From Barthelona sp. PAP020 (Eukaryota): a stretch of DNA of 49,857 nt. Numbering within the stretch: position 1 is the stretch's first letter; the number at the start of each line of letters is the position of its first letter. The stretch is from assembly GCA_040182905.1 (NCBI GenBank), contig JARQWU010000045.1, positions 1-49,857 on the forward strand, read 5' to 3'. This document shows, one piece after another, positions 102-25,955 of this stretch. Both the position numbers and the translations under genes were made by a program. The notes beneath the pieces are model-generated. The model ran no database searches. It was not told the origin of the DNA and saw nothing but the letters and a program-made list of their open reading frames with translations.

Positions 102-194
102 ATGTTGTATGAATAGAAATTGTTTTTTTTTTCCGATTGATATTCCGAAAAATCGAATGTATAACTTGTATATTTCCAATAATCACACATAATA

Positions 195-3100: not shown

Positions 3101-6100
3101 AGGTTTTGTTGACAGACTAGTAAGAGATGAAGAAAAGATTGATATTAAGTCTTTATCAAGATCTACATCAAAGTCTGAAGAGTTGATTCAAAATCCTCGA
3201 TTGAATAAATCTATCGATACTATGAAGGTTGAGGTAAAAAATAAAAAAGATGAGATATTTGATCTCTCAGTTGATTGGATGAAAGATCCAGACTATAAAA
3301 AATCTGAAAAAGTGTTGCATGACACGATAGGGTCAGTTAAAACAAAAGATTTTGCATTGCCTCAAGCAAAAATCATTGTTGATGCTGATGTTTTGAAAGA
3401 TAACTCAAATATTATATCTAATATTGAAAATGATTCTGAATTGGGCAGTGCAACTGAAATTGATGAATCTGAGACAGAAAATAGCGATTCAAGAGCAGCT
3501 TCAACTTCAGAACTTTCTTATGAATATACTGAAGAGGATATCAATGATATGAATGATATTTTGACACGTTCTTCTTCAGCAACAAGTGTTTTTACTGATA
3601 CTGCATACAATTCAGAAACAGATATTACCTCTGATAACTCTGAACCAAACGATCCAAATAGAAGTATTGGTGTTGAAGATGATCTTGCTGAAACCATGAG
3701 AAAATCCATTGATGATTTGTTAAAAGCTCATAATGTTGAAAGAACCAAGGCAAATAAATCTCCATTGAAAAGAGTTCATACCAACCCAAATTTGGATACT
3801 CTGAAAGTTAGTCGTGATAAAATTGAATCAGATGATGAAAAACTTGTTTCTGGACGGAGTAATTTTTCAAATGATAACAATATTGGGGTAAAGAAAGCTG
3901 ATACGGTTGTAAATAAAGGGAAAAAACAGAATGAAAAGAAACAAAATAAAAATTCATTGATTAAGTCGAAAAAGTCAAAATCAAAATCAAATCAATCCAG
4001 TGATGAAGGAAAGTCAAGTTCGTCAAAGCCTTCCAAATTAAAAGTTAAGGTTAAAACGAAGGGAAAACCCAAATCAATTAATTTACATACTGAAAAGAAT
4101 TTAAATAAGGAAAAGAAACAACAATCCAGTGTGAAATCCAAGACAAATTCAAAATCTATGAAATCTGCTAAACAAAAAAAAACCACAAAACAGAGCAAAT
4201 CCAGTAAATCAAGTAAATCCACAAAATCTGCAAAAGCATCAAAAACCTTATCTTCAAATGGAGAAGAAGAAAAAAAAAGACGTCAAAAAATTATTGAACT
4301 TGCGCAAATTTCTGAAGAAAATTTGGGAGATATTAAGAATATGATGGATGTACTTGCTGAACAGGAAAATAATAGGTTGGAAATTTTGGATTTACAAAGA
4401 CATGAAGAAGTAGAATTTGAATGCAAAGAAAATGTTCTTTTGTTTGAAGAGAATAAATCTCGATTGAATTTTCTTCAAATAGAACATAGAAATTCCATTA
4501 AGAATAAATTAGATCTCAAAAGATATGATAGAGATGCTTCAATATTTGAAAAGACTAATCTTGACGATAACGATAGTATTTTTGACGAATATCCAGCAGA
4601 AAGTGATAAAAATGATGAAGTTGACTCAATTGCGGAACAATTACTTAAATTACAAAAAGAAGCTGAATTAGAGCAATTAAACATTGATACTGATCGTGAA
4701 AAAGCCAAAAATTCAAATGAAAATTCAAAAATTGATTTAGATGATAAAATAGCGGGTTTATTGAAAAATTTGAATAGAAAGCACACTGAAATTGATAACT
4801 CCAAGAAAATAACAAAGACAAAAACAAAAACAAAACCACAACCACCAGATTCAAATAATAATTTGAGTAAAGTTCGAAAAAAACCGAGAAAAATTAATAA
4901 GAATGGAATGGCTCGAACAGAATCAGTTCTTTTTGCCAGAATGGAGACTCCTGTTGAATATGTTTTTGATGAAGATGATAACATTAAAATTCTTGATGAA
5001 GAAACGTCTAAAGAGAAAGAAAAATCTAAAATATCCCCTTTTGATGTTGTAGGTAAACATGGATACACGATTAGACAACTTAGAGAACAACAGCGAATGG
5101 AAGTTATTGAAATATTTTGTATTAAACAGAATTCTCATGAGCTTCATCGGCAAAAAATTGAAACAAAGTTGATGCAAGTTGCTGAAGAGTATTCATCAAG
5201 AATTCAAGCAGAGTTTCAAACGATAAGTGATCAAAATTTCAACAAAAATTATGATGAAACCATAAAAAATTTGTTATTAAATCAGGATAATGATGTTGGC
5301 AAAAATAATTCAACTTCTTGCAAGGATTCTGAAATTCTCAATGTTAATAATGTTGAATTTGGGCCTAATCATCCAACTGAAGATGAATGGACTCTTATGA
5401 AGAATGCTGCAATTCAATTTTATCAAGAAAAAGCAGATATGGAATTAGAGTGGTTCTTTAATGGTGAATATCAAAATAATGTGGAATTTTTGAAATCTCA
5501 AGATAATAGTCGTTTTCGTAAGTTTAATTTGCCCAAAAGCATTACCAAATATTATATTGAATTGGAAAATGGATATCCTGATATCGATGGCACTTGGTGG
5601 ATAGAAGAAGATACTGTTCAAGATCAAGATGTTAAAAATAGGAATATTGAAAATGCATTTATTGTTAAACAGGAGATTTTAGAGCCTGTACTCACATCTT
5701 TTCCTGGTTTAATGACTTTTTGTGGAGCATTGTTGAAATTGAATGGTACTTTTATTGCTGTGACTGATGACAGTTCATTATTGGATGAAGATTATGAAAC
5801 TGATTCTGACAGTTCAAATGATGCAAAAAATTTACAACTTGATAATTTGCATAAAGTTCTTTCTGAACATTCCCCAAACACAACTTTAATAATTGAGGAT
5901 TTGAACAGATTGAATTCTCAAGAAAAGTTCTCCAGCAAAAGTAAACATTTTGAAGAAAACATTCAAGGAATAATTAATTCGACAAATGAACATAAAAATA
6001 AGACAAATATAGTGGTTATTGAGGACAATATGGGTGGTAATAAGATCATAAATAACAGCATTAGCGTTGGTGCAATGGGAGATGATTCAAATTGGACGAT

Positions 6101-7472
6101 TAATGAAGAACAAGAATATATTGAGAATATTGATGAAAATGCTTTGAGGGTTGCTGCTTTAAAAAGGCGTAAAAATTCCAAATCAAATGCCAGTAATCAA
6201 GTAAATCCAGTTGGTTCTACCAGGCGTAGAAGATCCTCATTTAGCATTACTGCAGATAATTCTCATGAATTTTCTTCAAGAATATCAACAATTGTACAAC
6301 AAATTGATTCTAATCGTTCAAATAATGATTTATCACAATCCAATCGTTCTAATGGTTCAGGAATGTCCTTTGATTCTGTGTTTATGTCTGATGATGATGA
6401 TGTTTTTGATGATAATGAACTTAAACATCAAGATTATATAAAACAAAAAAAGAGAAGAGATACTTTAAACGATTTACAGAATTTGGTAAAACAAATGGAT
6501 ACCACTAGATCATATATCAGCGATGCCACTGAATTATTAGCAAGAAACTCGGAAAATACTAGATATAATGCAATTCTTGAAGAAGAAGATGATGATTCAT
6601 CTTTCAATGGTAGAAATAAAAACAATACATCAGATAATAAGAAATTGAAATTCCCAAAACATCTTTTGAAATTATTTGAAGAAACGTCCCCAGACAATCA
6701 ATTTGATCACATGGGTTTTGAAGATGTTCCAAGTATTAACACAACAGATTACAGTAAATCAACGTATAAACGTTTGAAGCAAGCTGTAAAAACAAACATT
6801 CATTTGTATGTTCCTTCTCCTGGAAATTTCTTTGAAAATAAAGCAAAAGAAAGTGTTGAACCAAAATCAGGAGCTACTACAAGCAGATCAATCATTTCTG
6901 ATGATGAAAAGATTGACATAAAAATGAGTTTAGCAAAAATATACGACTTGCCTGAAGGTGAAAAGTCAGATTCTGATCGTGAAGTTGATGAAGCACCATT
7001 TGAACGATTTGTTTCAGAAATAGCTTTAGATCCTATGTTGAGTTTTATGAAAGCTGAAGAAGAACGTGTACACAAAAAAACAGAAGCTTTTGTAAAAAAA
7101 GCTCGTGGACCAATTAAAGATCTCAAAAATAGAAACATTCACAAACGTTCAAAGAAAAATTTATTACCTGATTTTGATTTTGATAATTTATTTTCAACCA
7201 ATAATTCAACATGTGAAGAAAACGAGAATTCACCCATTGTTGATGAAAATGATAGTCCTAATAGTTTGATGAGTTTTGATTCATTTGATAGTTTAAGCAA
7301 TATACCTGCCAACACACCAAGAGACAATGTCAGTTTGGAACAAGTTTTTGACCTTGATAAGAAATTTGATTTGAAAGCCAGCACTTCAAACCTTAAATTA
7401 CCATTTGATTGGACATTACACATAAGAAAAACCCCAATTGTCAAATATAGATTGCCCAAAAACAAAAAATAA
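195..7472 (+). CDS. Large hypothetical protein (2425 aa), low-complexity K/E/S/N-rich with predicted coiled-coil segments
   Basis: 7.3 kb uninterrupted ORF in very AT-rich DNA, so it is coding; no domain recognised. Confidence 0.8.
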   Translation: MTNIAEMKTSNSKYISVRLPSADPIVFDNNSDFSDDDIEIAREFFQLEFDNKHDKKFDFDKLKNSKHLPNIDLLNTPKNSKGSMNGHKLKTPTVSSNNTIHNSPFDLNIQYVDLKRAIYINDNQNIEQIEQNVDNSLGTEIESSENFHSHSKNEIENQSSVSIVQIGDHSVVNTPDIDLTTFESTPNITRVSSQLLYKKMQNSPTFFNKSNYSKTVLDTPYDIKQGENGLTKQTYGSQTLVNGELKSFTEVKNKVEKIKSKLSKINTHGPKIHKSKGNQEIEDKIDQPVVTKKVKSKSSSKYKQIVKPKGELNEFPKKPVKKDSRFKQPKDFNSQINIMRYDLHSNNNILSDVSKVDVNRVICDAFGIDIPETDLLGMNSIDVENTEQSSEPKLNLNDALRNARRNSLKVYSEGVEKVLKSIKSSSKINSMLAVTFPSANLSNGETFELTKFAVGKLENLNEDVVFMPFKQERSASTEKKPSVIMINLNAQPESFIEAVKISKSFNIFKSFKEKLVKLIRRFHRFYLSMLQLQKQFQNSFSIKNIEETRKKKLLRILAQIRSTNSYLELYDVILKNQTFLVHSTGGALHMQLVIDWIETMKREQFQVHTQSYSHVPYQTIDEKSTLNAQANAVDSLKKVVDLSKMSKTVEFEFYSDSMSKGQEQGIKTPLLESSNTSLLFNQIKKETFYPSNEEEESQQGNNIDNHDLQANTKNLSEISFNDTIQEVLTHIQAKKDVSTDESIKSNASQLYKTVLLRNLDEKWSMGVEMLISILRSELEAQIERSRHIRRFSFSSPNVFDCQIDSDPLLTLKREDLFDLEEAERNEMFEADIFSKKREENMIMYERIKFFKEKFEENRLKEEEESKERIKQLLIKQEMLTSSKRIEIGNVKSFFTREKEAFVEKQKKLLKEQEEMKEIEELQEKLAKLKNDGSKEDLNNDEQEEEESLVLKPLDPITISSTELDDDEREGFVDRLVRDEEKIDIKSLSRSTSKSEELIQNPRLNKSIDTMKVEVKNKKDEIFDLSVDWMKDPDYKKSEKVLHDTIGSVKTKDFALPQAKIIVDADVLKDNSNIISNIENDSELGSATEIDESETENSDSRAASTSELSYEYTEEDINDMNDILTRSSSATSVFTDTAYNSETDITSDNSEPNDPNRSIGVEDDLAETMRKSIDDLLKAHNVERTKANKSPLKRVHTNPNLDTLKVSRDKIESDDEKLVSGRSNFSNDNNIGVKKADTVVNKGKKQNEKKQNKNSLIKSKKSKSKSNQSSDEGKSSSSKPSKLKVKVKTKGKPKSINLHTEKNLNKEKKQQSSVKSKTNSKSMKSAKQKKTTKQSKSSKSSKSTKSAKASKTLSSNGEEEKKRRQKIIELAQISEENLGDIKNMMDVLAEQENNRLEILDLQRHEEVEFECKENVLLFEENKSRLNFLQIEHRNSIKNKLDLKRYDRDASIFEKTNLDDNDSIFDEYPAESDKNDEVDSIAEQLLKLQKEAELEQLNIDTDREKAKNSNENSKIDLDDKIAGLLKNLNRKHTEIDNSKKITKTKTKTKPQPPDSNNNLSKVRKKPRKINKNGMARTESVLFARMETPVEYVFDEDDNIKILDEETSKEKEKSKISPFDVVGKHGYTIRQLREQQRMEVIEIFCIKQNSHELHRQKIETKLMQVAEEYSSRIQAEFQTISDQNFNKNYDETIKNLLLNQDNDVGKNNSTSCKDSEILNVNNVEFGPNHPTEDEWTLMKNAAIQFYQEKADMELEWFFNGEYQNNVEFLKSQDNSRFRKFNLPKSITKYYIELENGYPDIDGTWWIEEDTVQDQDVKNRNIENAFIVKQEILEPVLTSFPGLMTFCGALLKLNGTFIAVTDDSSLLDEDYETDSDSSNDAKNLQLDNLHKVLSEHSPNTTLIIEDLNRLNSQEKFSSKSKHFEENIQGIINSTNEHKNKTNIVVIEDNMGGNKIINNSISVGAMGDDSNWTINEEQEYIENIDENALRVAALKRRKNSKSNASNQVNPVGSTRRRRSSFSITADNSHEFSSRISTIVQQIDSNRSNNDLSQSNRSNGSGMSFDSVFMSDDDDVFDDNELKHQDYIKQKKRRDTLNDLQNLVKQMDTTRSYISDATELLARNSENTRYNAILEEEDDDSSFNGRNKNNTSDNKKLKFPKHLLKLFEETSPDNQFDHMGFEDVPSINTTDYSKSTYKRLKQAVKTNIHLYVPSPGNFFENKAKESVEPKSGATTSRSIISDDEKIDIKMSLAKIYDLPEGEKSDSDREVDEAPFERFVSEIALDPMLSFMKAEEERVHKKTEAFVKKARGPIKDLKNRNIHKRSKKNLLPDFDFDNLFSTNNSTCEENENSPIVDENDSPNSLMSFDSFDSLSNIPANTPRDNVSLEQVFDLDKKFDLKASTSNLKLPFDWTLHIRKTPIVKYRLPKNKK

Positions 7473-11004: not shown

Positions 11005-12585
11005 CTAATTAAAATAATCACTTAAACTCACAACGAATATTTCCTCACTCTTTGAGGGCGTGCTTTCTAATTCAACATTTGTTGCCCACCAAAAACCATT
11101 CACTCTGGAATCTAAAGTGCCTTTTACAATGGAGCCAATTTTACAAATTGAATTTCTGGAAACTTCGATAGAAACCACGGGAAACGTCTCTAAATCATTG
11201 GCGAATTCTTTGTCTAAAAGAATAAAAGAATACATTCTTCCTGTGGGGTTCTTAAAGTGTGCAATGATTGTTCCTTTTACCAAATTACCTTGTAAAGATT
11301 GAACAACACGTGGTTTATGTGCTTGAGCTTTTCCAACATTAGACCAATGAGCCGTAAATGAGACAACATCTCCTCTTCGAAATGACTGATGAGAAGATGA
11401 TTGAATATTTGCACTAAACCACACTTCCATTCCACAACTTAATTTCAAGAATCCAAAATTATTGTTGACAACATTGTAAACAAATCCTGTGTATAATTCA
11501 CCTGCTTGAAATAAATCCGACGTTTGTGGCGGTAATTCACTGAGTTCAATATCAACAGCTTCAGGACCAATATCAATATCATAACTGGCATGGAATGTAA
11601 CTCTGCTGCCAATCAAATATCTGCAATCTTGAGATCCTTTATTGTATCTTTTCTTTTTCATCAATGATCTAGGACCCAATTTAGAAACATAACCCTGATT
11701 TGTGACTTCAACATCCACCTTAAAATTTTCTAACTTGAATATGAAAACTGAATCATCTTCATCAGTGACAATAAATCCAACTAACAATTCAGAAAGATGG
11801 ATAAAGTGTTTGATGACTCCAGTTAATTTTGGCAAAACACTCATTTGAGATGAAGCAATAGAGGAGATAGAAGTGGTTGATAGCAACGATTTTGTACTGT
11901 TTGAACTTTGACTTTGAATATCTGTAGTGTTAGATTTAACGTTTCGGCTTATATTTTGCATAGATGTTGAAGCATCAGAAAGTACAGGCATTGAACTAAA
12001 CCCGACGGTTTGTGGTTCATCCTTCTTCGAAGTTGAAGACATCAAATTTGGCTGTGAAAAATTCAAATTATAGTTATAAAAACCACCAACAGGTGCACTT
12101 GCAGGAAATGTTTGCTTTAACTCTGCATGCAAAGCACTAATGGGTTCATCATCAAAAGAAGTATCAACAACTAATTGCTCATATGAAGGTGAATTGAAAC
12201 TATTAAACATATCATTTTCAGTTGAAAAGGGGAAATCTTCTTCAATGTTGAAGTGACCATTGTCCAAAGAAAAAGGTAATTCTTTTTCCAATGAAATCCC
12301 ATTTTCAATATCCTCCGTTGGAAACATAGGATAAGATGATGTTATTGAAAAAGATTGTTCAATTTCATCAACTAAAGCACTGGGTATTTCTTCATGTGAT
12401 TGATGAGTTAAAGACAGTAAATCATTTTTGAATTTTAATATCTCCCTATTATCTAGATATTTGCTCAATTCACTTGTAGGCATTTGGACTAAATAAAATA
12501 AATTATTGATTTGAGCGTTGAAATGTGGAATCAATTTAGAATACCCATGTTGACGACACCATGAGACTGCATCATTTCCAACCAT
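11005..12585 (-). CDS. Putative nucleic-acid-binding protein: N-terminal SAM-like helical domain, Ser-rich linker and 2-3 C-terminal cold-shock/OB-fold domains
   Basis: YTGFVYNVVNNNFGFLKLSCGMEVWF...FRRGDVVSF...GKAQA resembles a cold-shock domain (RNP1-like FGFL). Similar G-x-I/V starts occur at LTGVIKHF and VKGTIIAHF. The N-terminus VSWCRQHGYSKLIPHF resembles SAM helices 1-2. Confidence 0.6.
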   Translation of the reverse strand: MVGNDAVSWCRQHGYSKLIPHFNAQINNLFYLVQMPTSELSKYLDNREILKFKNDLLSLTHQSHEEIPSALVDEIEQSFSITSSYPMFPTEDIENGISLEKELPFSLDNGHFNIEEDFPFSTENDMFNSFNSPSYEQLVVDTSFDDEPISALHAELKQTFPASAPVGGFYNYNLNFSQPNLMSSTSKKDEPQTVGFSSMPVLSDASTSMQNISRNVKSNTTDIQSQSSNSTKSLLSTTSISSIASSQMSVLPKLTGVIKHFIHLSELLVGFIVTDEDDSVFIFKLENFKVDVEVTNQGYVSKLGPRSLMKKKRYNKGSQDCRYLIGSRVTFHASYDIDIGPEAVDIELSELPPQTSDLFQAGELYTGFVYNVVNNNFGFLKLSCGMEVWFSANIQSSSHQSFRRGDVVSFTAHWSNVGKAQAHKPRVVQSLQGNLVKGTIIAHFKNPTGRMYSFILLDKEFANDLETFPVVSIEVSRNSICKIGSIVKGTLDSRVNGFWWATNVELESTPSKSEEIFVVSLSDYFN

Positions 12586-12800
12586 TTTTTAAAAATTTCC
12601 AAAAATAATGAATGAAAGGGTATTTTTAAAAAAGAATAAAAGATAGAACTTTTTTTTTTTACAAAGAATTCTTTTTCATTTGAATAAATCATTGTTTCTC
12701 AAGTTTGTTTGTGTAAAATAAAGAAAAATGAAGTGGTTTTTTTTCGAACAATTTTCTGTTTGAACAAAAAAATTTTTTTTAAAGACTATCAAATTAATGC

Positions 12801-14050: not shown

Positions 14051-14568
14051 ATGAAAAATCAATTACGTATCAACAAAGAAATTCAGGGTTTACATGAAAT
14101 GAATGCTAACCCTATTGATGGTATTAAAGGAAGAGTAGTTGGTGATGATATTAATCACCTTGAAGCTATTATCAAAGGACCTGTATTCATTTACTTGTAC
14201 AATATTCTAATTTTTAGCCTGAAACTCCTTATGAAAGCGGAGTGTTTTTAATTGATATCACTATTCCTGAAAGGTTTCCTTTTGATATGCCTACATTTAC
14301 TATGGTAACCCCATGTTACCATCCTAATATCAGTCATAGGGGTGAAATTTGTTTGGATTCGATTAAAGAAAATTGGAAACCTCAAAATCGTATCACTTAT
14401 TGTTTGATTACAATTCAACAATTATTAGCATCTCCTAATCATGAACATTATTTGAATCAAGAAGCTGCCACTCTCCTTTCTGGCAATTCACAAAATTTTG
14501 ACTCTGAAGTCAGGTGTCGAGTTCAATCTCATTCCACTGTAATTAATTTTGATGATTGGAATGCTTGA
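14051..14568 (+). CDS. Ubiquitin-conjugating enzyme E2; join(14051..14182,14218..14568)
   Basis: Removing the 35-nt intron GTATTC...CTAATTTTTAG (14183-14217) joins two track ORFs into IKGPPETPYESGVF...YHPNISHRGEICLDSIKENW, which has the HPN motif and catalytic Cys. Confidence 0.92.
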
Positions 14569-14689: not shown

Positions 14690-17600
14690 GTGTTCGTAGC
14701 AAAGCGGACGGATTTCACGTAAAAGACAATATAAATGTGTTTAAGGTTTCTTCTTGCAATTTCTGATATTAATGGATATCAAAATTGAAAGTGAAATAAC
14801 AACAAAGAATCAAATGATTCAGGGTAATAAGGATGCAAGTGTGCATAGTAGGTTAGCAAGGAATTACATGGTTTCATCAAGGAAACCCAGAGAAGAACAA
14901 TCAAAATTTATTGGCAAGAAGGGAAAAGATTATTAAACTTTTATTTAGATAATCGCCCCATCCACACCTAAAGTATTTCAAAATGGTTATGGAAAAAGAA
15001 ATCGTGGATGACGCCGAAGCAATGGATGAAAGGGTTAATTTATGCACAGAAAACCTAGCTATTCTCCAGGCAAAACTTAGCATGATGACTGAAAACTTTG
15101 AGTCACTTGCTGGAGGGAAAAAGGATAGCAAGAGATCTAAACCCAAGGATGAATACACGGGAGAAAGGGTTCTCAAAAAAATGTTTGACCACCAACAATG
15201 GTTAGAGGAGATTTTCGGTGAAATCTCTTTTAAAGAAACATGTTCTGGACGTTTCAATCATAAAAAACTTCAGTTCATGATCCCAATCGCTCTGTTCATG
15301 GGAGACATGTTCAGAGCATTAAATTTAAAAGATTTTGATCTCTCTCCTGCACTTGAAGACATCAAAATTGTCTTAAAAAAATTCTTAAGAAGTGAGTGGT
15401 GGGAAAGTTCAATCAAACATCAATTGATGAATTTAAGTTGCATACATCAATTGTTTTGGGAATATAGGGAACCAAAAGAACGGTTCAAAAACAAGAAGAA
15501 GAATAAATTCAGGTCAATAGAAGAAAGAATTGACAAAAAAATTGACCAATTACTGTTAAAAAAGGAGCAGGTGGTAGTCCAAAATGAGACTATGAAAACT
15601 TTAAAAAAGGATTTAAAGAAAATTAAGCCACCAGAACGCTCAGAAAAAGAAGAAAAAATTTTTACAGAAGAGGTTCAAAATCCTCCAAATTTTATTTTAA
15701 AGAGGGATTCCATTCAAATAGTTCCAAATTCTAATTGTGATGGAAACTGGAATCCTGATGAATTCATAAAGTTAACAAAAGCGTTGCATTACACAAAGGA
15801 ACAGCAAGCTTTTATAAAAGAAATTGTTACTGGTGCTCCAACATTAGTTGATCCGGAACTCACAGGTTCAAATGAAGTGGATCACTGGGCTGGGAGTCAG
15901 ATAAATAAAGTATTAGAAAAATGGACAGAAGGCAATAATAATGTGTTAAAAGAATACAATGGTCCAATCATAAAAAATGCAGCTTTAGGCGCTGTACCTA
16001 AATCAGATGGAACAATAAGACCCATTCTGGATTGCACGCCTATGAACTCGGTCAGCATGTTGTGGCCACACGAGTTAAACTGTTATAGGTATTTTCCTTT
16101 AATACCTAAATTCGCTGCAGTACTGGACATAAAAGATGGGTATACTCACATACCTTTAAGTGAAGATTGGCTACCAATGACGGTAGTAGAAGTGGAAACA
16201 AAGAAGTATGCAGCCCAAAGATTACCTTTTGGGTCTGCTGTTTCTGCACAATTATTTTCAATGGCCCTACAAGTTCCCGTTGATGCTGCTAGAGCAAATG
16301 GAGTATTCGTCTTGCAATACGTTGACGATCTGCTCATCGGCGGAGATACTTTAGAAGAATGCAAAAAGAATACAAAAATCATGATGAATTTGCTAAAACA
16401 GGTGGGGTTTAAAGTTAAAGAATCAAAGATCCAGAAGCCATGCACTGAAGTAGAATATCTTGGCTTCAAGATTAATACCAAAGAAAGGGTAATTAGCTTA
16501 CCAAAGGAAAAAAGAAATGCAATGCTGGATATGCTAAACGGATTAACAATTCAAGGAGCGATCTCGCTCGAAGGAAAACTACAATCAGCCAGCATTGTTT
16601 CACAAAAATACAGAGGAATTGCTTTAGAGTTAGGAAACGTTATTCACTACAAGAAACATTATTTTGGTGCAAAAGACTTGAAAGAATTAATTACAAAATA
16701 TGGACACTTAAAAATTGAAATTACTGAAAATCTGAAGGATAAAATTGAAAAGTTGCTTAGCATAGAGTTAAAGGGAGAATTATGTCCCAGAGTTGTGACA
16801 GGAATAATCGCTACAGATGCTTCGTTGAAAGGAATAGGTTGGGTTTTGGAACAAAAAGACCAAAGCAGACCATTAATGCATAAACAAGAGGTTTCCAGTG
16901 GAGAAACAAACATCGCAGTTATTGAATTAGAAGCGCTATGGCAAGCATTATTAAAGATGAAGAAGCAAGCTAAGGACGCGTGCTGGGTATGGTTGATTGA
17001 CAACCAAAACGCCTTAGCAGCATTTAGAAAACAGAAAAGTTCGAGTATGAAGCTATCTACGTTATCGAAGAAAATATGGGAATTGATTGAATCACTGAAT
17101 TGTCAAGTGATTCCATTTTGGATACCAACAAAAAAGAATACAATAGCAGATATGCTTTCCCGAGGGAAAACAATGAAGATTTCGAAAGGAGTCGTGTTTA
17201 CAGACATATCGTTATGTCCAGAAGAATTCAAAATACCGTCATACATGTATCCTTCATACACAGCATTGAGAATGTGTCCTCGAGTGAAGAATAGAACAGG
17301 AAAAAACTTACAAGGAAAATCAAGGTCAATAAGAAGAATTTTAGATAGAACAAGAATAAGAACTGGGAAATTCCCAGATGAGATTAAAGAAGATTTATGG
17401 AAAGAAGATTTAAATGAAGAAGAAGAAGAAAATGAAGAATTAGAAAAATTGAAAGATGAGAGAAATATTAAGGATGAAGAGACATTAGATGAAGAATGGG
17501 CCGCAATAGGTTATGATTCAATATTGTTTTACACAGCCGTGCAGAAAATAGGTACAAAGATGTACTACAAAGAAACAGTGGAGAATGTAGTTTTAGATTT

Positions 17601-18940
17601 GATTCTTAGAGCTGCAAGGTTTGGCGTTAATGTGGAAGTAAAAGGAATAGAGGCAGAGTCTTACCCTGCCTGGAGATCGTTGGTGAAATTTTGCGATGGA
17701 AACAGAAGTATCCAAATAGAAAGTGGAAAGTTCCAACAATTATTTAATTCACAGACAAACTGTTACGATGATGTAGAGAAAGAATTCACAAGATACAGAT
17801 GGGATGATTCCCTTGTGTGGGAAACCATGAAACTAGGAGTTGCAAAGTCAACATGGGATCAATACGAAGGATATTACACAAGATTCTTGAATTACTGCAA
17901 GAAAAGAGGAAGGATAGATGACTTGGATAAAATTGATCATGAGCTGGAATCACTGGCACATGAGTTCGTAGACACGGAAGGTTTAAAGAGAAATGATAAC
18001 GGAAACTACAAGATGAAAGCAGAGACGCTTGGTAGAATATATGCAGGAATAGTATACTTTTGGAAAGCCATTGGCTGGAATGCAGGTGGTGGATTTATGA
18101 ATATGAAGAAGATGATGCTAGCCAAGCACAAAAGATTAAGACCCCCGACGGCAGAAGATCACCGACCGAAGACTGCAATAAGAAGAAAGCAGTTGGTAGA
18201 CTTTTGTCGATACATGATAGAAAACAGTAAACAGGATAAAGAAATGATTAACGACATGTTGGATGCAGCATGTACGTTGTATTTCACTTGCTCGAGAAGA
18301 AGTGATTTGGAAAGTGGTTCAATTGAAGTGAAGGTTGGGCCAAAGACAGTTTTAATGTTTATATACTGTAAGAAGGTGAAAAGTATTAAAGAAGTATCCC
18401 TATTTTGGACAGAATTAGAAGGAAAGGGAGGATTCGAAAAGCGATTGTTAGATAGTTATAAAACAAGAATAAGAAGAGGACAGGTAATAAGCCTGACAAA
18501 TAATGTTGAGAAAATTAAAGAAATTAATGAAAATTTATCGAAAGAATTAAAGAAGTTCTGTAAGGAAAGGAACTTCAATTATCCACTGGCTCTTCACTCG
18601 TTTAGAAGAGGAAGGGCCAGGGCTTTGTTCAAGGCTTTAGAAAATGGGGATCGTGCCGGTGATATAGACGTACTGAAACAAATGGGTGGATGGAAGTCTG
18701 TTCAAATGGCCGAGTTGTACGCAGCTCATTCGGTTTACGTGGATTCGATTCAGAATAATTCTGGACAAGAGTGTTCTGAACCATCCACGCAAAACGACTC
18801 AGTTGCAAGTACCCCCAAACTCTAACCGAGAACAATAAAGATCTTCATAAACATTTATTATTATTGTCGTGTGAAATTTCCCCAACCCCAGTTGGTAAAT
18901 AAATTAAAGCCTTTAATTTTGCCCTTTCGTCTAACATGAA
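14690..18940 (+). mobile_element. Tyrosine-recombinase (DIRS-order) retrotransposon, apparently intact; boundaries approximate
   Basis: Carries RT, RNase H and tyrosine recombinase domains. Imperfect inverted repeats lie at 14712-14743 and 18848-18877, and the purine-rich, intronless composition differs from the flanks. Confidence 0.85.
14983..18825 (+). CDS. Single-ORF polyprotein (1280 aa): Gag-like/coiled-coil N-terminus, reverse transcriptase, RNase H, linker, tyrosine recombinase
   Basis: RT: AVPKSDGTIRPILD, LDIKDGYTHI, RLPFG, YVDD (16318-16329), EYLGF. DIRS-type RNase H: TDAS (~16813), ELEA, DNQ, NTIADMLSR. Recombinase: STWDQY..RFLNYC, CSRRSDL, HSFRRG (18595), GGWKS, MAELY (Tyr at 18718). 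Confidence 0.93.
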   Translation: MVMEKEIVDDAEAMDERVNLCTENLAILQAKLSMMTENFESLAGGKKDSKRSKPKDEYTGERVLKKMFDHQQWLEEIFGEISFKETCSGRFNHKKLQFMIPIALFMGDMFRALNLKDFDLSPALEDIKIVLKKFLRSEWWESSIKHQLMNLSCIHQLFWEYREPKERFKNKKKNKFRSIEERIDKKIDQLLLKKEQVVVQNETMKTLKKDLKKIKPPERSEKEEKIFTEEVQNPPNFILKRDSIQIVPNSNCDGNWNPDEFIKLTKALHYTKEQQAFIKEIVTGAPTLVDPELTGSNEVDHWAGSQINKVLEKWTEGNNNVLKEYNGPIIKNAALGAVPKSDGTIRPILDCTPMNSVSMLWPHELNCYRYFPLIPKFAAVLDIKDGYTHIPLSEDWLPMTVVEVETKKYAAQRLPFGSAVSAQLFSMALQVPVDAARANGVFVLQYVDDLLIGGDTLEECKKNTKIMMNLLKQVGFKVKESKIQKPCTEVEYLGFKINTKERVISLPKEKRNAMLDMLNGLTIQGAISLEGKLQSASIVSQKYRGIALELGNVIHYKKHYFGAKDLKELITKYGHLKIEITENLKDKIEKLLSIELKGELCPRVVTGIIATDASLKGIGWVLEQKDQSRPLMHKQEVSSGETNIAVIELEALWQALLKMKKQAKDACWVWLIDNQNALAAFRKQKSSSMKLSTLSKKIWELIESLNCQVIPFWIPTKKNTIADMLSRGKTMKISKGVVFTDISLCPEEFKIPSYMYPSYTALRMCPRVKNRTGKNLQGKSRSIRRILDRTRIRTGKFPDEIKEDLWKEDLNEEEEENEELEKLKDERNIKDEETLDEEWAAIGYDSILFYTAVQKIGTKMYYKETVENVVLDLILRAARFGVNVEVKGIEAESYPAWRSLVKFCDGNRSIQIESGKFQQLFNSQTNCYDDVEKEFTRYRWDDSLVWETMKLGVAKSTWDQYEGYYTRFLNYCKKRGRIDDLDKIDHELESLAHEFVDTEGLKRNDNGNYKMKAETLGRIYAGIVYFWKAIGWNAGGGFMNMKKMMLAKHKRLRPPTAEDHRPKTAIRRKQLVDFCRYMIENSKQDKEMINDMLDAACTLYFTCSRRSDLESGSIEVKVGPKTVLMFIYCKKVKSIKEVSLFWTELEGKGGFEKRLLDSYKTRIRRGQVISLTNNVEKIKEINENLSKELKKFCKERNFNYPLALHSFRRGRARALFKALENGDRAGDIDVLKQMGGWKSVQMAELYAAHSVYVDSIQNNSGQECSEPSTQNDSVASTPKL

Positions 18941-19028
18941 AGCTTTTATAATCATTTTCTGTTTTACAGCATGAATTAAGGTTATTTCCAAAACTCGATC
19001 CTGCTTCCTTGTTTTTTTTTTTGAAAAA

Positions 19029-19101
19029 TGGACTATCAGGGCGTCGATCCCCGTGCCTCCCGCATGCTAAGCGGGTGCTCTACCAGGTGAGCTAATAGCC
19101 C
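19029..19101 (-). tRNA. tRNA-Ala (anticodon AGC)
   Basis: Reverse complement GGGCTATTAGCTCACCTGGTAGAGCACCCGCTTAGCATGCGGGAGGCACGGGGATCGACGCCCTGATAGTCCA, 73 nt: G3:U70 acceptor stem, anticodon arm CCCGC-TTAGCAT-GCGGG, Ala-type GATCGA T-loop, followed by a TTTTT Pol III terminator. Confidence 0.96.
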
Positions 19102-19376
19102 ATATAACAACAAAAATTTTTTTTAAATGAACAATTTGGTGTGAAGAACATTTGATTTTGTTGTTAATCATTACTACCATTATTTGACCTTCTTGAGAAA
19201 TTCACTAGTAGCAGTTAACATTTGTTCTTCGTTGGATAAAGTTTTTTTTATCTTTATGAATTGGGGTTGATGTTTTCAAACCTGGTATCAACAACAAAAT
19301 GGGAAAGAATTCTCTCCTCAAACACAACAAAAATTGGAAATCGTATCAGGGATCTTTCACTTCTGTTTTGAAGATT

Positions 19377-19702
19377 ATTGGTCCAGTTATGAAACAAATA
19401 CATTATTTACAAAGAAAGTAAACTCAGAAAACTCATTCTAGCAAATTTCAGTCAAAATCTCAGGAGGGGAATTGAGGGACTGAAATGTAATTGGAACAAT
19501 CAAGTAGGAGAATTTCGGAGAAATTCTTTATTCCTATTTTTTTGTATTTTTGCAAAAACAAAATTTTAAAGATTGAACTTTACCTTAGAAAATTTAAAGT
19601 TATTCAACAGATCAATCGGGCCTCAAAAGCCTTTAACCAAATAAACACTATTCTTTATATTTTCACTCATACTCACAGTGCTTTTTGTCTTGGAAATAAT
19701 TA
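19377..19702 (+). repeat. Dispersed ~320-bp repeat, copy 1 (inverted relative to copy 2)
   Basis: Aligns with the reverse complement of 25261-25577, sharing for example ATTCCTATTTTTTTGTATTTTTGC, AACTTTACCTTAGAAAAT, TCAACAGATCAATCGGGCCTC and AACCAAATAAACACTATTCTTT. Confidence 0.9.
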
Positions 19703-19949: not shown

Positions 19950-22900
19950 TTAATTGTAGAAGGACCGTAAAAGCTCTACAATTTGAGCATGACCGTTGGT
20001 TCGGGCAATATCTATTGGTGTCAATCCTTGTTCAGTTTTGAGGTTGACATTGGCTTTATGATACAAGAGCATTTTAGCAACATCAACATGACCTTCTTGA
20101 CAACTAATATACAATGGCGAGCAACCATCTTTATCACATTGATTGGCATCAACCCCATGATCCTCTAAGAGCATTTTAGCAACATCAACATGACCTTCTT
20201 GACAACTAATATGCAATGGATAACGACCATTTTTATCACATTGATTGGCATCAACCCCATGATCCTTCAATAGCATTTTGACAACATCAACATGACCTTC
20301 TTGACAACTAACGAACAATGGAGATTGACCATCTTTATCACATTGATTGGCATCAACCCCATGATCCTCCAATATCATTTTGGCAACATCAACATGACCT
20401 TCTTGACAACTAATATGCAATGGATAACGACCATCTTTATCACATTGATTGGCATCAACCCCATGATCCCTTAATAGCATTTTGACAACATCAACATGAC
20501 CTTCTTGACAACTAACGAACAATGGAGATTGACCACATTTATCACATTGATTGGCATCAACCCCATGATCCTCCAATAGCATTTTTGCAACATCAAGATG
20601 ACCTTCTTGACAACTAATATACAATGGAGACCAACCATCTTTATCACATTGATTGGCATCAACCCCATGATCCTCTAATAGCATTTTGGCAACATGAAGA
20701 TGACCATTTTGACAACTAACGAACAATGGAGAGCAACCATCTTTATCACATTGATTGGCATCTACCCCATAATCCTCCAATAGCATTTTGGCAACATCAA
20801 GATGACCATAATAACAACTGAAGAGCAGTGGAGAGTGACCACCTTTATCACATTGATTGGCATCAACCCCATGATCCTCTAATAGCATTTTGGCAACATG
20901 AAGATGACCTTTTTGACAACAAATATGCAATGCAGAGCGACCATCTTCATCACATTGATTGACATCAACACTATGATCCAACAGCATTTTGGCAACATCA
21001 AGATGACCTTCTTGACAACTAATATACAATGGATAGCGACCATAATTATCACATTGATTGACATCAACCCCATGATCCAAGAGCATTTTGGTAATATCAA
21101 GATGACCATTTTGACAACTAATGAACAATGGAGAAGTGCCATCATCTCTGCACAAATTAATATCTTCCCCAAGATCTACGAGCATTTTGGCGATATGAAC
21201 ATGACCACATTCACAACTCACAAATAATGGCGACTCATCATTGTTCATACATAATTTGACATTGGCACCACGGTTCAAAAGTAGCTTTGCAATATCAAAA
21301 TAACCTTGTTGACAAGTGATATACAATGGCGAAGTACCATTATTCGTACACAAATTAATATTTGCCCCATGATCCAAAAGCACTTTTGCAACATCAATAT
21401 GACCTTGTTGGCAACATAAAAATAATGCAGAAAAGCCATCACCACCACATTTATCGATATCAGCCTCATGACACAATAAAAACTTTACCAAATCAACACA
21501 ACCTTTAAAGCAACTAGCAACCAATGGTGATAAGCCATTTTTCACACACAAACTAATATCAGCACCCCATTTCAAAAGCATTTTAGCAAGATCCAAATGA
21601 CCTTCTTGACAACTGATGTAAAATGGTGAAGCCCCATCATTAGCACATTTGTTGATATCAGCTCCATAATCTAATAGCATAGTTGCCACATCAAGATGAC
21701 CTTGAAAACAACTAACACACAATGGAGAGTAACCATTTTTCATACACAAACTAGCATTAGCACCCCATTTCAAGAGCATTTTAGCAACATCAAAATGACC
21801 CTCTTGACAACTAATCAAAAATGGTGAAGCCCCATCATCACCACATTTATTGATATCAGCTCCATAATCCAATAGCATAGTTGCCACATCAAGATTGCCT
21901 GAAAGACAACTAACATACAATGGAGACATACCATTATTCCTACACAAATTAACATTAGCCCCATTATCCAACAGCATTTCGACAATCTCATCATGACCTT
22001 GAAAACAACTAACATACAATGGAGAGCAACCATTTTTCATACACAAACTAACATTAGCACCCCATTTCAAGAGCATTTTAGCAACATCAAAATGACCCTC
22101 TTGACAACTAATCAAAAATGGTGAAGCCCCATTATCAGCACATTTATTGATATCAGCTCCATAATCCAATAGCATTTCCACCATATCAAGATTGCCTGAA
22201 AGACAACATGCAAACAATGGACGGAGAACACCATCATCACATATGTTAACATCAGCACCATGATCCAAGAACATTTTTACAAGTGAAGAATAACCCCTTT
22301 TACAACATATTAACAATGGGGAAGCACCATTATATTGGCACAAATTAACATCAGCCCCATGATCCAAGAGCATTTTGGCAACATCAAGATGACCATTGTA
22401 ACAACTCATGTACAATGAAGAAGTTCCATCATGCACACACAAATTAACATCAGCCCCATGATTCAAGAGCATTTTGGCAACATCAAGATGACCATTCTGA
22501 CAACTCATGTACAATGGAGAAGTACCATTCTTATTACACAAATTAACATCAGTCCCATGATCCAAGAGCATTTTGACAACATCAAGATGACCATTGTAAC
22601 AACTGACAAGCAATGGAGAAGCATCATATTTATCACATTGATTAACATCAACTCTTTGATCCAAGAGCATTTTGACAATCTCTAAATAGCCCTTAAAACA
22701 ACTGATATACAACGGTGAAACCCCATTGATCGTGCATTTGTTGACATCAGCTCCTTTGTCCAAAAGCATTCTAACCACATCATTATGCCCATTTTCACAG
22801 GCAGTAAATAATGAACAAGCACCAGTATTCTTACAAAAGTTGATATCGACCTCAAAATCCAACAACATCTCCACAATATCACTATGACCACAAGAAGAAG

Positions 22901-24560
22901 CCTCCCAAAGAACGGTTTCACCCTCATTTCCAACCTTTATCCATTGTTTAACAACTTCCAATTTTCTATCACGCACACTATGATATATCGTATCTGTATT
23001 GCAATATTCGAAAAAATTATCTGGAACAATAACTTCATATAATCTATGTTTCATATAAGAATCAACAATGGCAGTAGGAACGATTTTCAAGTCAGCAATC
23101 AACCCATCGAGATACTCAACTATTTCTGAAAACATTGGTCTATTTTCGGGATCACGATTAAAACACTGAAACATAAAATTATATCCAATGGCCGATTCTA
23201 ATTCTTCGTGTTTAAAAGGCAATTCACCCTTATATAATTTTAGAGGAATTACACGATCAGAAATTCCTTCAAAAGGCTTGAACATTGTCATCACTTCAAA
23301 GTAAGTTGTTGCAAATGCCCAGCAATCAATACCAGGATGAGCAAAAATTTCATTGTTTACCAATTCAGGAGGCATATAACAAATGGTTCCTGTCTTAGAC
23401 ATCCTACTGTTTCTTTCAAAAGAACGAACAAGACCAAAATCGCACAGAGCAGTTGTTCCATCCTTTCTGATCAAAACATTCTTTGGATTGATATCTCGAT
23501 GAATTACACCTTTACTATGACAAAATTCAAGTGCAGAAGACAGTTGTAACATACTGATTAATCTCTCAAGAACAGTCATTTCAGCCATTCTTTTACTCAA
23601 TGTATATGGGCAATATTCCATCACAATTCCCCAATGATTTTTATCATTTTTACCTTTCCATTTCTTACATGTCATACCATACACTTTGCAAATGAATTGA
23701 TGAGGAAATTTTACAGCAATACATTCACCTTTCACTTCTTTTTTAGTTGAAGTATTGATAAATTTTATAGCAACATCGGAGTGCTGATGTTGACCAAAAT
23801 AAACTGTGCCATAACTACCGGATCCCAATTCCCTTTCTTCATTTAACAGTTCATAATCTATAAATGGAACCTTAAACGCAGAACTGACGAGTTTCTGTTC
23901 AAATTCATTCATTTTTTGTTGCAACTCTTCCATCTTTTTCTTACGTTCTAAAGGATCCATTTTCGACATTTCATTCATTTGCAGATTTTGTTTTGAATGG
24001 AAAATTTCATCCATATTGAATATATGCTTGTTTATTTTGTCATAAATATTGGCAGGAAGTGGTGAAATGGAGAAAGACTTTCCACTTGACATATTATTCA
24101 AATTCTTATTTAAATTCACAGCCAAATTCTTGTTTAAATCATCAAGCTTATGGTGCAAACAAATTAAATCCTCGAAATAACTTGCATGAACAAATTTTCC
24201 AAATAAACTAACACAAATTCGATTTTCAATTAATTCCATAACTTCTTTAAAACATTCGGAAAACTGATTCAAATATTTTTCGAATCCAATATTTGTCCAA
24301 TTTTGTGTCAATATTTCTTCAAAACTGCCCAAAAACCAAAGCATTCTGAAATATAAAATTAAAACATCTTTTTCCACTTTTTTAACATTAGTAAATCCAA
24401 TTCGAAGCTCTTTTGCAACGTTTAAAATCGATACATTGTGTTGAGAAAGAGACATAAAGATTAAATCAAAATCTACCCCTTCAATGAACTCTTGAAAGTC
24501 AGCAAAATCGTCGAAAGTATCTAAAAGTGACGTTTGGTAGTTTTTTAGAGCATTTGACAT
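19950..24560 (-). CDS. Protein kinase (TKL-like) with about 29 C-terminal ankyrin repeats; probable ATG at 24560 (MSNALKNY)
   Basis: LGSGSYGTV, VAIK, HRDINPKN, DFG, GTICYMPPE, DCWAF and RP, followed by repeats of the form G-x-SPL-x-x-SC-x-x-GH-x-DVAKMLL-x-x-G-A-D-V-N. Confidence 0.92.
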   Translation of the reverse strand: MSNALKNYQTSLLDTFDDFADFQEFIEGVDFDLIFMSLSQHNVSILNVAKELRIGFTNVKKVEKDVLILYFRMLWFLGSFEEILTQNWTNIGFEKYLNQFSECFKEVMELIENRICVSLFGKFVHASYFEDLICLHHKLDDLNKNLAVNLNKNLNNMSSGKSFSISPLPANIYDKINKHIFNMDEIFHSKQNLQMNEMSKMDPLERKKKMEELQQKMNEFEQKLVSSAFKVPFIDYELLNEERELGSGSYGTVYFGQHQHSDVAIKFINTSTKKEVKGECIAVKFPHQFICKVYGMTCKKWKGKNDKNHWGIVMEYCPYTLSKRMAEMTVLERLISMLQLSSALEFCHSKGVIHRDINPKNVLIRKDGTTALCDFGLVRSFERNSRMSKTGTICYMPPELVNNEIFAHPGIDCWAFATTYFEVMTMFKPFEGISDRVIPLKLYKGELPFKHEELESAIGYNFMFQCFNRDPENRPMFSEIVEYLDGLIADLKIVPTAIVDSYMKHRLYEVIVPDNFFEYCNTDTIYHSVRDRKLEVVKQWIKVGNEGETVLWEASSCGHSDIVEMLLDFEVDINFCKNTGACSLFTACENGHNDVVRMLLDKGADVNKCTINGVSPLYISCFKGYLEIVKMLLDQRVDVNQCDKYDASPLLVSCYNGHLDVVKMLLDHGTDVNLCNKNGTSPLYMSCQNGHLDVAKMLLNHGADVNLCVHDGTSSLYMSCYNGHLDVAKMLLDHGADVNLCQYNGASPLLICCKRGYSSLVKMFLDHGADVNICDDGVLRPLFACCLSGNLDMVEMLLDYGADINKCADNGASPFLISCQEGHFDVAKMLLKWGANVSLCMKNGCSPLYVSCFQGHDEIVEMLLDNGANVNLCRNNGMSPLYVSCLSGNLDVATMLLDYGADINKCGDDGASPFLISCQEGHFDVAKMLLKWGANASLCMKNGYSPLCVSCFQGHLDVATMLLDYGADINKCANDGASPFYISCQEGHLDLAKMLLKWGADISLCVKNGLSPLVASCFKGCVDLVKFLLCHEADIDKCGGDGFSALFLCCQQGHIDVAKVLLDHGANINLCTNNGTSPLYITCQQGYFDIAKLLLNRGANVKLCMNNDESPLFVSCECGHVHIAKMLVDLGEDINLCRDDGTSPLFISCQNGHLDITKMLLDHGVDVNQCDNYGRYPLYISCQEGHLDVAKMLLDHSVDVNQCDEDGRSALHICCQKGHLHVAKMLLEDHGVDANQCDKGGHSPLLFSCYYGHLDVAKMLLEDYGVDANQCDKDGCSPLFVSCQNGHLHVAKMLLEDHGVDANQCDKDGWSPLYISCQEGHLDVAKMLLEDHGVDANQCDKCGQSPLFVSCQEGHVDVVKMLLRDHGVDANQCDKDGRYPLHISCQEGHVDVAKMILEDHGVDANQCDKDGQSPLFVSCQEGHVDVVKMLLKDHGVDANQCDKNGRYPLHISCQEGHVDVAKMLLEDHGVDANQCDKDGCSPLYISCQEGHVDVAKMLLYHKANVNLKTEQGLTPIDIARTNGHAQIVELLRSFYN
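20069..20884 (-). repeat. Eight near-identical 102-nt tandem units encoding 34-aa ankyrin repeats
   Basis: The (G/T)CATTTT..CAACAT anchor recurs at 20069, 20171, 20273, 20375, 20477, 20579, 20681, 20783 and 20885; the period then changes to 99 nt. Confidence 0.92.
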
Positions 24561-25260
24561 CAAGAATGATGAAATAAAAAAAAGATTTTCTTCTTTCTTC
24601 AATCCAGTTTAATGTTTCATTTTTAAATCACTGAATAACAATTTCTTACTCTTTTTACAAGCATTTTAGCATTTCTAGGAGTTTTTGATTGTGATAATTA
24701 GGTTAAATAACATAAATTCGCAGATTGAAATTGTGAATTGCCATTTGAGATTTCTTGAATTATATATCTTTCAGTTAATACTCTTAATTTGTTACTTTTC
24801 AAATAATTTTCAAAAAATCACAGATTCTTCCAAAATAATCTCTGAACAGAGGCTGCAAACAAGTGAATTGAAATAAAAATGAAATTCTTTAGTAACTGAC
24901 AATGAACAGGTTGAATCAGAGCTTTAGAAATTCAAATATTCTTTGTGAAAGATAACCGCGGCTATTGCTTCTGGCACCATTAATATCATTCTTTTTTGGC
25001 ATGCTCAAGCTAAAAATCCATAACAAAATGACAAAGTGGGAGACCCTTTTTTACTTGAACCCGTGTAAAATTTTAAAAATCTGTGATCTCACACTTCTTT
25101 CATGGAAGACTGAAAGAAGTTTATTGCATGACCACAAAACCCGTTATCATTGAAACTATCAACAAAAGAAGGTAAATACCCGGTCAAAACAAAGTTCTTT
25201 TCAATTCATTAGTGGTAAAAATCAATAAATTAAATTTACATTGAAATTCTCAAAAATTTT

Positions 25261-25577
25261 TAATTATTTCTAAGCCAAGAAGCACTGTGCGTATGAGTGA
25301 ATAAAAAAGAATAGTGTTTATTTGGTTGAAGGCTTTCGAGGCCCGATTGATCTGTTGAAAAACTTTTGATTTTCTAAGGTAAAGTTTAAACTTTAAAATT
25401 TTGCTTTCGCAAAAATACAAAAAAATAGGAATGGAAAATTTTTCCAAAATTTTCATACTTGATGAGCAAGATTCAATTGCAGCCACTCATTCTCTGTGGC
25501 TGAGATTTAATGAAATGAGTTTTCTCTGATTACTTTTTCTTTGTAAATAAATATAGTTGTTTCACAACTTGACCAAT
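25261..25577 (-). repeat. Dispersed repeat, copy 2 (inverted partner of 19377-19702)
   Basis: Reverse-complement match to copy 1; the two spurious ORFs over these copies also share IPIFLYFC and QQINRASKAFNQINTIL. Confidence 0.9.
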
Positions 25578-25780: not shown

Positions 25781-25955
25781 CCAAGAAGCACTAGGAGATG
25801 AGTGAATGACAAATATGAGTGTTTAATTGGCTGGAGGCTTTCGAAGGCAGATTGATTGGCTGAAACTTTTAATAATAAGTGAAACTGAAACTTTATAATT
25901 AGTTTAAAGTAAAAAACAAGAATTAGAAAATTTCTCCCGAGTTTTCACACTTGAA
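25781..25955 (-). repeat. Dispersed repeat, copy 3 (partial, more diverged; same orientation as copy 2)
   Basis: CCAAGAAGCACT..ATGAGTGAAT..AGTGTTTA.TTGG.TG.AGGCTTTCGA.G...GATTGAT..and TTTTCA.ACTTGA match 25275-25465. Confidence 0.75.

What the first reader, a model, noticed from the sequence alone, without database searches (positions are those of the whole stretch)
14983..18825. Tyrosine-recombinase retroelement with Gag-like region, RT, RNase H and recombinase fused in one ORF
Seen: a single stop-free 1280-aa frame carries an intact RT (YVDD), a DIRS-type RNase H (D-E-D-D residues) and a tyrosine recombinase with R...HxxR...W...Y residues. No protease motif and no DDE integrase are visible. 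Established: DIRS1, Ngaro/PAT and VIPER elements usually encode Gag, RT-RH and the recombinase in separate or overlapping ORFs. Inference: this may be a compact, possibly undescribed lineage in which one polypeptide reverse-transcribes and then integrates the cDNA circle, in effect a single-protein RNA-to-DNA writer. The intact frame suggests recent activity or domestication.
Basis: partly seen in the sequence, partly recalled or inferred. Interest (0 to 1): 0.88.

Follow-up and report, generated by a model that had tools for sequence, protein, structure and literature searches.

The report
One-gene recombinase retrotransposon in a protist
A single unbroken gene in a microbial eukaryote (likely the flagellate Barthelona) carries reverse transcriptase, RNase H and a tyrosine recombinase, and is likely a compact variant of the known DIRS-type jumping genes that would copy and re-insert itself using one protein, although the usual end repeats are not visible in this copy.

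Summary
14983-18825 (+) is one stop-free 1280-aa frame with RT, RNase H and tyrosine recombinase (YR); all 14 catalytic or motif residues checked are kept in two relatives. The fusion is not an assembly error: two full-length transcript proteins from Barthelona sp. PAP020 (38-40% identical) and a third family are fused in the same order. A near-identical transcript protein (506/508 aa) points to that host; it and a 78-aa fragment look like broken copies. Codon use differs from the flanking genes, which favours a mobile element over a domesticated gene. The novelty was overstated: single-ORF YR retrotransposons are in print (Bodo saltans TATE, other domain order), fungal Ngaro YR can share the RT frame, and six other database proteins join RT and YR. 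What is distinctive: a long-branch Barthelona lineage with no detectable methyltransferase, no overlapping frame, a conserved ~220-aa unknown linker, no convincing terminal repeats in this copy, and a tRNA-Ala gene 202 bp downstream (one case). 'Gag-like' rests on position only. Verdict: new variant of a known kind (order DIRS); subgroup unresolved; mechanism inferred.

The parts
14983..18825 (+). Single 1280-aa ORF of the YR retroelement
14983..15747 (+). N-terminal region aa 1-255, fast-evolving, lysine/glutamate-rich; Gag-like by position only
   Evidence: No meaningful Pfam or Atlas hit; 27% and 8% identity to P0002 and P0003; no CCHC
15748..16782 (+). Reverse transcriptase region aa 256-600 (D382, YVDD 446-449)
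   Evidence: Pfam RVT_1 4.6e-21; best PDB hits are Ty3 and retroviral RTs; 49-50% identity to relatives
16783..17163 (+). RNase H aa 601-727 (D612, E648, D673, D723)
   Evidence: the four acidic residues are invariant in 10 aligned RT-YR proteins
17164..17817 (+). Conserved linker aa 728-945 of unknown fold with an acidic insert, at the place where DIRS/PAT elements carry the methyltransferase-like domain
   Evidence: 35-36% identity to P0002/P0003; no MT match by HMM or hhalign; folds uninformative
17818..18732 (+). Tyrosine recombinase aa 946-1250: core-binding plus catalytic region (R1105, K1131, H1205, R1208, W1237, Y1246)
14690..14982 (+). Probable 5' non-coding part of the element; left end not established (begins after an A12 run; A-box-like 11-mer at 14697-14707)
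   Evidence: Sequence; motif seen in 17 of 100 shuffles of the window; boundary is inference
18826..19010 (+). Probable 3' non-coding part; right end not established; no convincing terminal repeat
19028..19102 (-). Host tRNA-Ala(AGC), convergent, its 3' end 202 bp past the ORF stop
   Evidence: ARAGORN; Rfam RF00005 49.7 bits

Best explanation
This is one stop-free gene encoding reverse transcriptase, RNase H and a tyrosine recombinase, and it is likely an autonomous DIRS-order retrotransposon of a Barthelona-specific lineage that would replicate through a single polyprotein. Shown: the ORF, its domains and catalytic residues, transcription of the family, sibling families with the same fusion. 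Inferred from DIRS-order models: the RNA is translated into one chain; RT and RNase H copy that RNA to cDNA; the cDNA is closed into a circle; the YR domains of several chains recombine the circle junction with a short genomic target, without target duplication. With no protease motif the chain likely works unprocessed and in cis, or is cut by a host protease in the acidic linker. The family most likely has split direct repeats (A-ORF-B-A-B), and this copy shows only A-ORF-B because the B-A-B loop was lost by recombination or dropped in assembly (inferred, untested).
For: Stop-free ORF with three catalytic domains. P0002 and P0003, labelled Barthelona sp. PAP020 transcripts of type complete, align over the whole RT-YR span without a break. 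A further Barthelona family, P0016/P0160/P0161, also joins RT-RH-YR. Apparent broken copies of this family exist among transcripts: P0012 (506/508 identical, aa 354-861) and P0017 (78% over 67 aa of YR). GC at synonymous third positions is 0.31 against 0.14-0.23 in 11 of 12 other window ORFs. Closest RT-RH relatives are YR-retrotransposon-like: 109 of 161 proteins then held carry the DIRS/PAT methyltransferase-like domain. The non-coding flanks (about 290 and 185 bp) are in the size range of A and B repeats listed for TATE (73-381 and 161-294 bp); this is only compatible, not proof.
Against: No convincing terminal repeats or internal complementary region in this copy, and these are required for DIRS-1 retrotransposition (PMC7192593). 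No genome or reads were available, so copy number, ends, target site and polymorphism are untested. P0012 ends between RNase H and YR. The highly expressed-type gene eIF4A also departs from host codon use (GC3s 0.39), so codon bias alone does not prove foreign origin. In DIRS-1 most cDNA detected is linear single-stranded and the circle junction was not amplified.
Confidence: 0.7

Rival explanations
1. The family truly has no terminal repeats and moves by a different route: one unprocessed protein binds its own RNA, makes cDNA and joins it to a target near tRNA genes with its YR.
For: No repeat above chance among 10 flank comparisons, while the control repeat scored 292 against a shuffle maximum of 35. 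No overlapping frame, no MT, conserved unknown linker. tRNA-Ala 202 bp downstream, the only tRNA in the window. tRNA-gene targeting arose repeatedly in compact dictyostelid genomes (PMC5006619); the species' genome is listed at 13.2 Mb (PMC11316075).
Against: One copy only. With roughly 20 genes in the window, a tRNA falling in one of the two gaps next to the element has about a 1-in-10 chance (my rough estimate). Loss or collapse of split repeats explains the same picture. A weak ~30-nt inverted match (14923-14949 against about 18930-18959) was reached by 6 of 200 shuffles.
Confidence: 0.13
2. It is a domesticated, immobile host gene derived from a YR retrotransposon.
For: Intact ORF, no terminal repeats, lies between ordinary host genes in a gene-dense region; transcribed family.
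Against: All three enzymatic modules are retained together; several sibling families and apparent broken copies exist; codon use is not host-like.
Confidence: 0.12
3. The RT-RH-YR fusion is an accident of this copy or of assembly, and the family normally has separate or overlapping ORFs.
For: P0012 stops at the residue matching aa 861. Some database fusions look accidental: P0020 lacks the first 40 YR profile positions and P0088 has half an MT domain.
Against: P0002, P0003 and P0016 are independently fused; the linker is conserved in frame at 35-36%; the alternative frames have no open stretch over 73 codons.
Confidence: 0.03

Closest known systems
Ngaro-like YR retrotransposons (fungal clades, PMC3783388; Cafeteria, PMC8547959)
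   Same: Order Gag-like, RT, RNase H, YR; no MT; usually no ORF overlap; YR can be in the RT-RH frame in fungi.
   Different: Described with separate ORFs and split direct repeats; neither is seen here. No labelled Ngaro sequence was available for the tree.
DIRS1-like and PAT-like retrotransposons
   Same: RT-RNase H type and domain order; most of the nearest RT-RH hits carry their MT domain; no protease, no DDE integrase.
   Different: No detectable MT, no long ORF overlap, no ITR/ICR or split repeats, one ORF instead of three.
TATE of Bodo saltans (VIPER-like; PMC6681497)
   Same: Gag-like, YR and RT/RH in one ORF (two copies), in a free-living flagellate.
   Different: Domain order there is Gag-like, YR, RT/RH; here YR is C-terminal. 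One copy there shows split repeats.
tRNA-gene-associated retrotransposons of dictyostelids (TRE3, Skipper-2; PMC5006619)
   Same: Position within a few hundred bases downstream of a tRNA gene in a compact genome.
   Different: Those use endonuclease or DDE integrase; listed distances are about 7-136 bp. Here one case, at most 202 bp depending on the true end; targeting not shown.

Membership tests
Order DIRS (YR retrotransposons) | RT and RNase H with a tyrosine recombinase in the same element | tested here: met
Order DIRS (YR retrotransposons) | No aspartic protease and no DDE integrase | tested here: met
Order DIRS (YR retrotransposons) | Gag-like ORF1 upstream of pol | tested here: inconclusive
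   255-aa region in that position, no homology found
Order DIRS (YR retrotransposons) | Dispersed copies and mobility | not testable with these tools
   No genome or runs; transcript relatives suggest several copies
DIRS1-like | Inverted terminal repeats plus internal complementary region | tested here: not met
   Best inverted match ~30 nt, reached by 6 of 200 shuffles, one of 10 tests; no ICR. One copy only.
DIRS1-like / PAT-like | Methyltransferase-like domain after RNase H | tested here: not met
   No HMM hit; hhalign probability 2% on the RNase H end motif alone and under 1% without it. A far-decayed MT is not excluded: P0021/P0096 also score under 1%.
DIRS1-like | Separate, often overlapping pol and YR ORFs | tested here: not met
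   One ORF; other frames closed
PAT-like / Ngaro-like / VIPER-like | Split direct repeats A-ORFs-B-A-B | tested here: inconclusive
   None in this copy; loss or assembly collapse could not be checked without reads
Ngaro-like | No MT, YR after RT-RH, no long overlap | tested here: met
Ngaro-like | Falls in the Ngaro clade by RT | not testable with these tools
   No labelled Ngaro references among hits; backbone unresolved
VIPER-like | YR placed before RT/RH | tested here: not met
   YR is C-terminal; order from PMC6681497

The most novel reading that the evidence does not exclude
A new lineage of YR retrotransposons that has dropped terminal repeats, protease and separate Gag, and uses one unprocessed RT-RNase H-recombinase protein, with a new linker domain, to write its RNA into DNA just downstream of tRNA genes.
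Probability: 0.12. Interest if true: 0.78.

Novelty: new variant of a known kind. Interest (0 to 1): 0.42.

Why it matters
DIRS-order integration has had little biochemical testing (PMC7192593 notes YR specificity had not been studied experimentally). An element of at most about 4.3 kb with one ORF and no overlap is an easier system to reconstitute, and it asks how Gag-to-Pol ratios and recombinase multimerisation work without frameshift or protease. I found no report of YR retrotransposons in this metamonad group in the searches run. If the repeat-less, tRNA-targeted reading held, it would be a new integration route and a compact RNA-to-DNA insertion tool; that is not shown.

Tried and rejected
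Vestigial methyltransferase in the linker: suggested by eye, not supported by HMM or hhalign. Structure prediction: both models unusable (mean pLDDT 35.6), so no fold search was run. ESM Atlas: one hit at 0.79 for the linker, below useful level; none for the N-terminus. Related loci: none in metagenome or viral contigs. Sequencing runs: none was listed, no RNA holder listed. Split tRNA or other RNA gene at the left end: no Rfam support; the A-box-like motif (consensus recalled) appears in 17 of 100 shuffles; the 14688-14830 fold has z -2.35, one of 5 folds tried. A 22-nt left-end pattern matched 7 metagenome loci, all one 54-57% GC context with no tblastn match to the ORF: chance. YR-only search found just P0017. 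The profile search for more full fusions returned 37 proteins, none new with both RT and YR Pfam labels, but it scored only the top 7997 candidates. Subgroup placement by tree: unresolved. Earlier scan notes: none for this genome or sequence. Supplements of the papers were not read; element structures in them may bear on precedent.
Full report
Observation. The window is a gene-dense, roughly 30% GC eukaryotic stretch (eIF4A-like helicase, ATG6, a ubiquitin-conjugating enzyme, ankyrin kinases, GCN1, kinesin). The frame 14983-18825 (+) gives 1280 aa without a stop, about 1e-46 by chance; the two other + frames carry 120 and 97 stops and no stretch over 73 codons. Pfam finds RVT_1 (4.6e-21), RNase H (1.2e-3) and Phage_integrase (3.9e-4) in that order. 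Catalytic positions were assigned from alignment and from recalled family motifs; 14 of 14 are identical in the two closest relatives. No protease motif, CCHC knuckle or DDE integrase was found.

Relatives and host. A whole-protein search returned 3 hits among 7990 scored candidates; two are full-length fusions of 1208 and 1209 aa, 38-40% identical, labelled Barthelona sp. PAP020 transcripts. A search of 1.84 billion representatives with aa 262-1280 gave 8524 hits at E<=0.001, of which the best 150 were returned. Among them P0012 matches aa 354-861 with two substitutions, P0017 matches 67 aa of the YR at 78%, and P0016 is a 967-aa RT-RH-YR fusion; all three carry the same species label. So the host is likely that species or a very close relative; which assembly the window comes from was not determined. 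The species is listed with a 13.2-Mb, 30.5% GC genome (PMC11316075, one section and passages read).

Is the fusion real? Yes. The RNase H-to-YR linker is conserved in frame at 35-36%, as much as the YR itself (30-34%). Three families at about 40% identity and a more distant fourth share the layout.

Is the fusion new? Not as such. PMC6681497 (abstract, sections 3, 7, 9, 13 read) reports two Bodo saltans TATE copies with one ORF, in the order Gag-like, YR, RT/RH. PMC3783388 (passages and section 15) says fungal Ngaro YR is either in the RT-RH frame or frameshifted. Of 202 proteins held, 12 hit both my RT-RH and YR profiles; 6 are from Barthelona or the window and 6 are not (P0013, P0020, P0062, P0084, P0086, P0088). 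Seven of the 12 were used to build the YR profile. P0062 and P0084 are nematode UniRef entries and P0013 a EukProt gene model, so false introns may have joined them; P0020 and P0088 have clipped domains and may be frameshift accidents; the sources of P0086 and P0088 were not looked up. A lineage-wide fusion in this domain order was not found in 7 paper searches; Repbase and subscription reviews could not be searched, and no supplements were read.

Placement. Of 161 proteins held at that point, 109 carry the DIRS/PAT methyltransferase-like domain; the Barthelona proteins do not, and profile-profile tests of the linker were negative. In a careful tree of 34 hand-picked RT-RH rows out of 131 aligned, the three close families group at 100/100 on a stem of 1.36 changes per site, P0016 joins at 96/83 on a long branch, and the backbone is open (quick tree of 45 rows; full FastTree). 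No row was a labelled Ngaro, PAT or VIPER reference, so the subgroup is unassigned. By features it resembles Ngaro (no MT, no overlap, YR last; PMC3266345 passages; PMC8547959 passages).

Ends and surroundings. The upstream host gene stops at 14568 and a tRNA-Ala gene ends at 19028 on the opposite strand, leaving at most about 4.4 kb. Repeat searches found nothing convincing. In 10 flank comparisons with shuffles the best were a ~30-nt inverted match reached by 6 of 200 shuffles and an A-rich direct match reached by 3 of 50; the control repeat scored 292 against at most 35. An A-ORF-B-A-B element that loses its B-A-B loop, in the cell or in an assembly graph, would look like this; that is inference. 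The tRNA adjacency recalls dictyostelid elements downstream of tRNA genes (PMC5006619 passages), but it is one case with roughly 1-in-10 chance odds.

Mobile or domesticated. Synonymous GC3 is 0.31 against 0.14-0.23 in 11 of 12 other ORFs; eIF4A is the exception at 0.39. With sibling families and apparent broken copies this favours a mobile element. No genome or reads could test it.

Mechanism. Shown: one ORF, three enzymatic modules, transcription of the family. Inferred from the DIRS model (PMC7192593 passages): RNA to cDNA by RT and RNase H, circularisation, YR recombination into a short target. That paper found mostly linear single-stranded cDNA and could not amplify the junction, so the circle is a model even for DIRS-1. 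Recalled, not tested: tyrosine recombinases act as tetramers, so several chains would be needed. Without a protease the chain likely acts whole or is cut by the host. The N-terminus and linker remain unexplained.

Other papers touched only by passage search, with nothing decisive: PMC4157794, PMC3537659, PMC8869645.

Verdict. A real, probably mobile DIRS-order element of an apparently undescribed Barthelona lineage with a conserved one-ORF layout.

Noticed in passing
window 19469-19702 and about 25261-25490: A non-coding inverted repeat of about 230 bp, near 85-90% identical, brackets the 1552-aa kinase-ankyrin gene (19950-24608); weaker related pieces lie near 25911 and 33533, by the second kinase-ankyrin gene. 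Could be a small mobile element or a duplicated regulatory block.
   Followed up: partly
P0016/P0160/P0161 (Barthelona transcripts): A second RT-RH-YR fusion family with only about 80 aa before RT and a YR closer to phage integrases (PHROG 1, 1.3e-15; His rather than Trp near the catalytic Tyr), so two YR types may be fused to RT in this host.
   Followed up: partly
P0003 and P0017: Both come from the same Trinity gene (DN3174_c1_g1) although P0017 resembles the window's family, hinting at nested or neighbouring copies, or a chimeric assembly.
   Followed up: no
window 14697-14707: A-box-like 11-mer just after an A12 run at the probable left end; could be a Pol III signal, but 17 of 100 shuffles give one.
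   Followed up: partly
window 14183-14217: Probable 35-nt GT-AG intron in the ubiquitin-conjugating enzyme gene, read by eye.
   Followed up: no
window 183-7472 (+) and 11005-12588 (-): Long ORFs (2429 and 527 aa) with no Pfam hit at E<=0.01.
   Followed up: no
P0062 (Strongyloides papillosus, UniRef): A 1260-aa entry with N-terminal region, RT, RNase H, MT and YR in one chain; worth checking whether it is a true single ORF.
   Followed up: no
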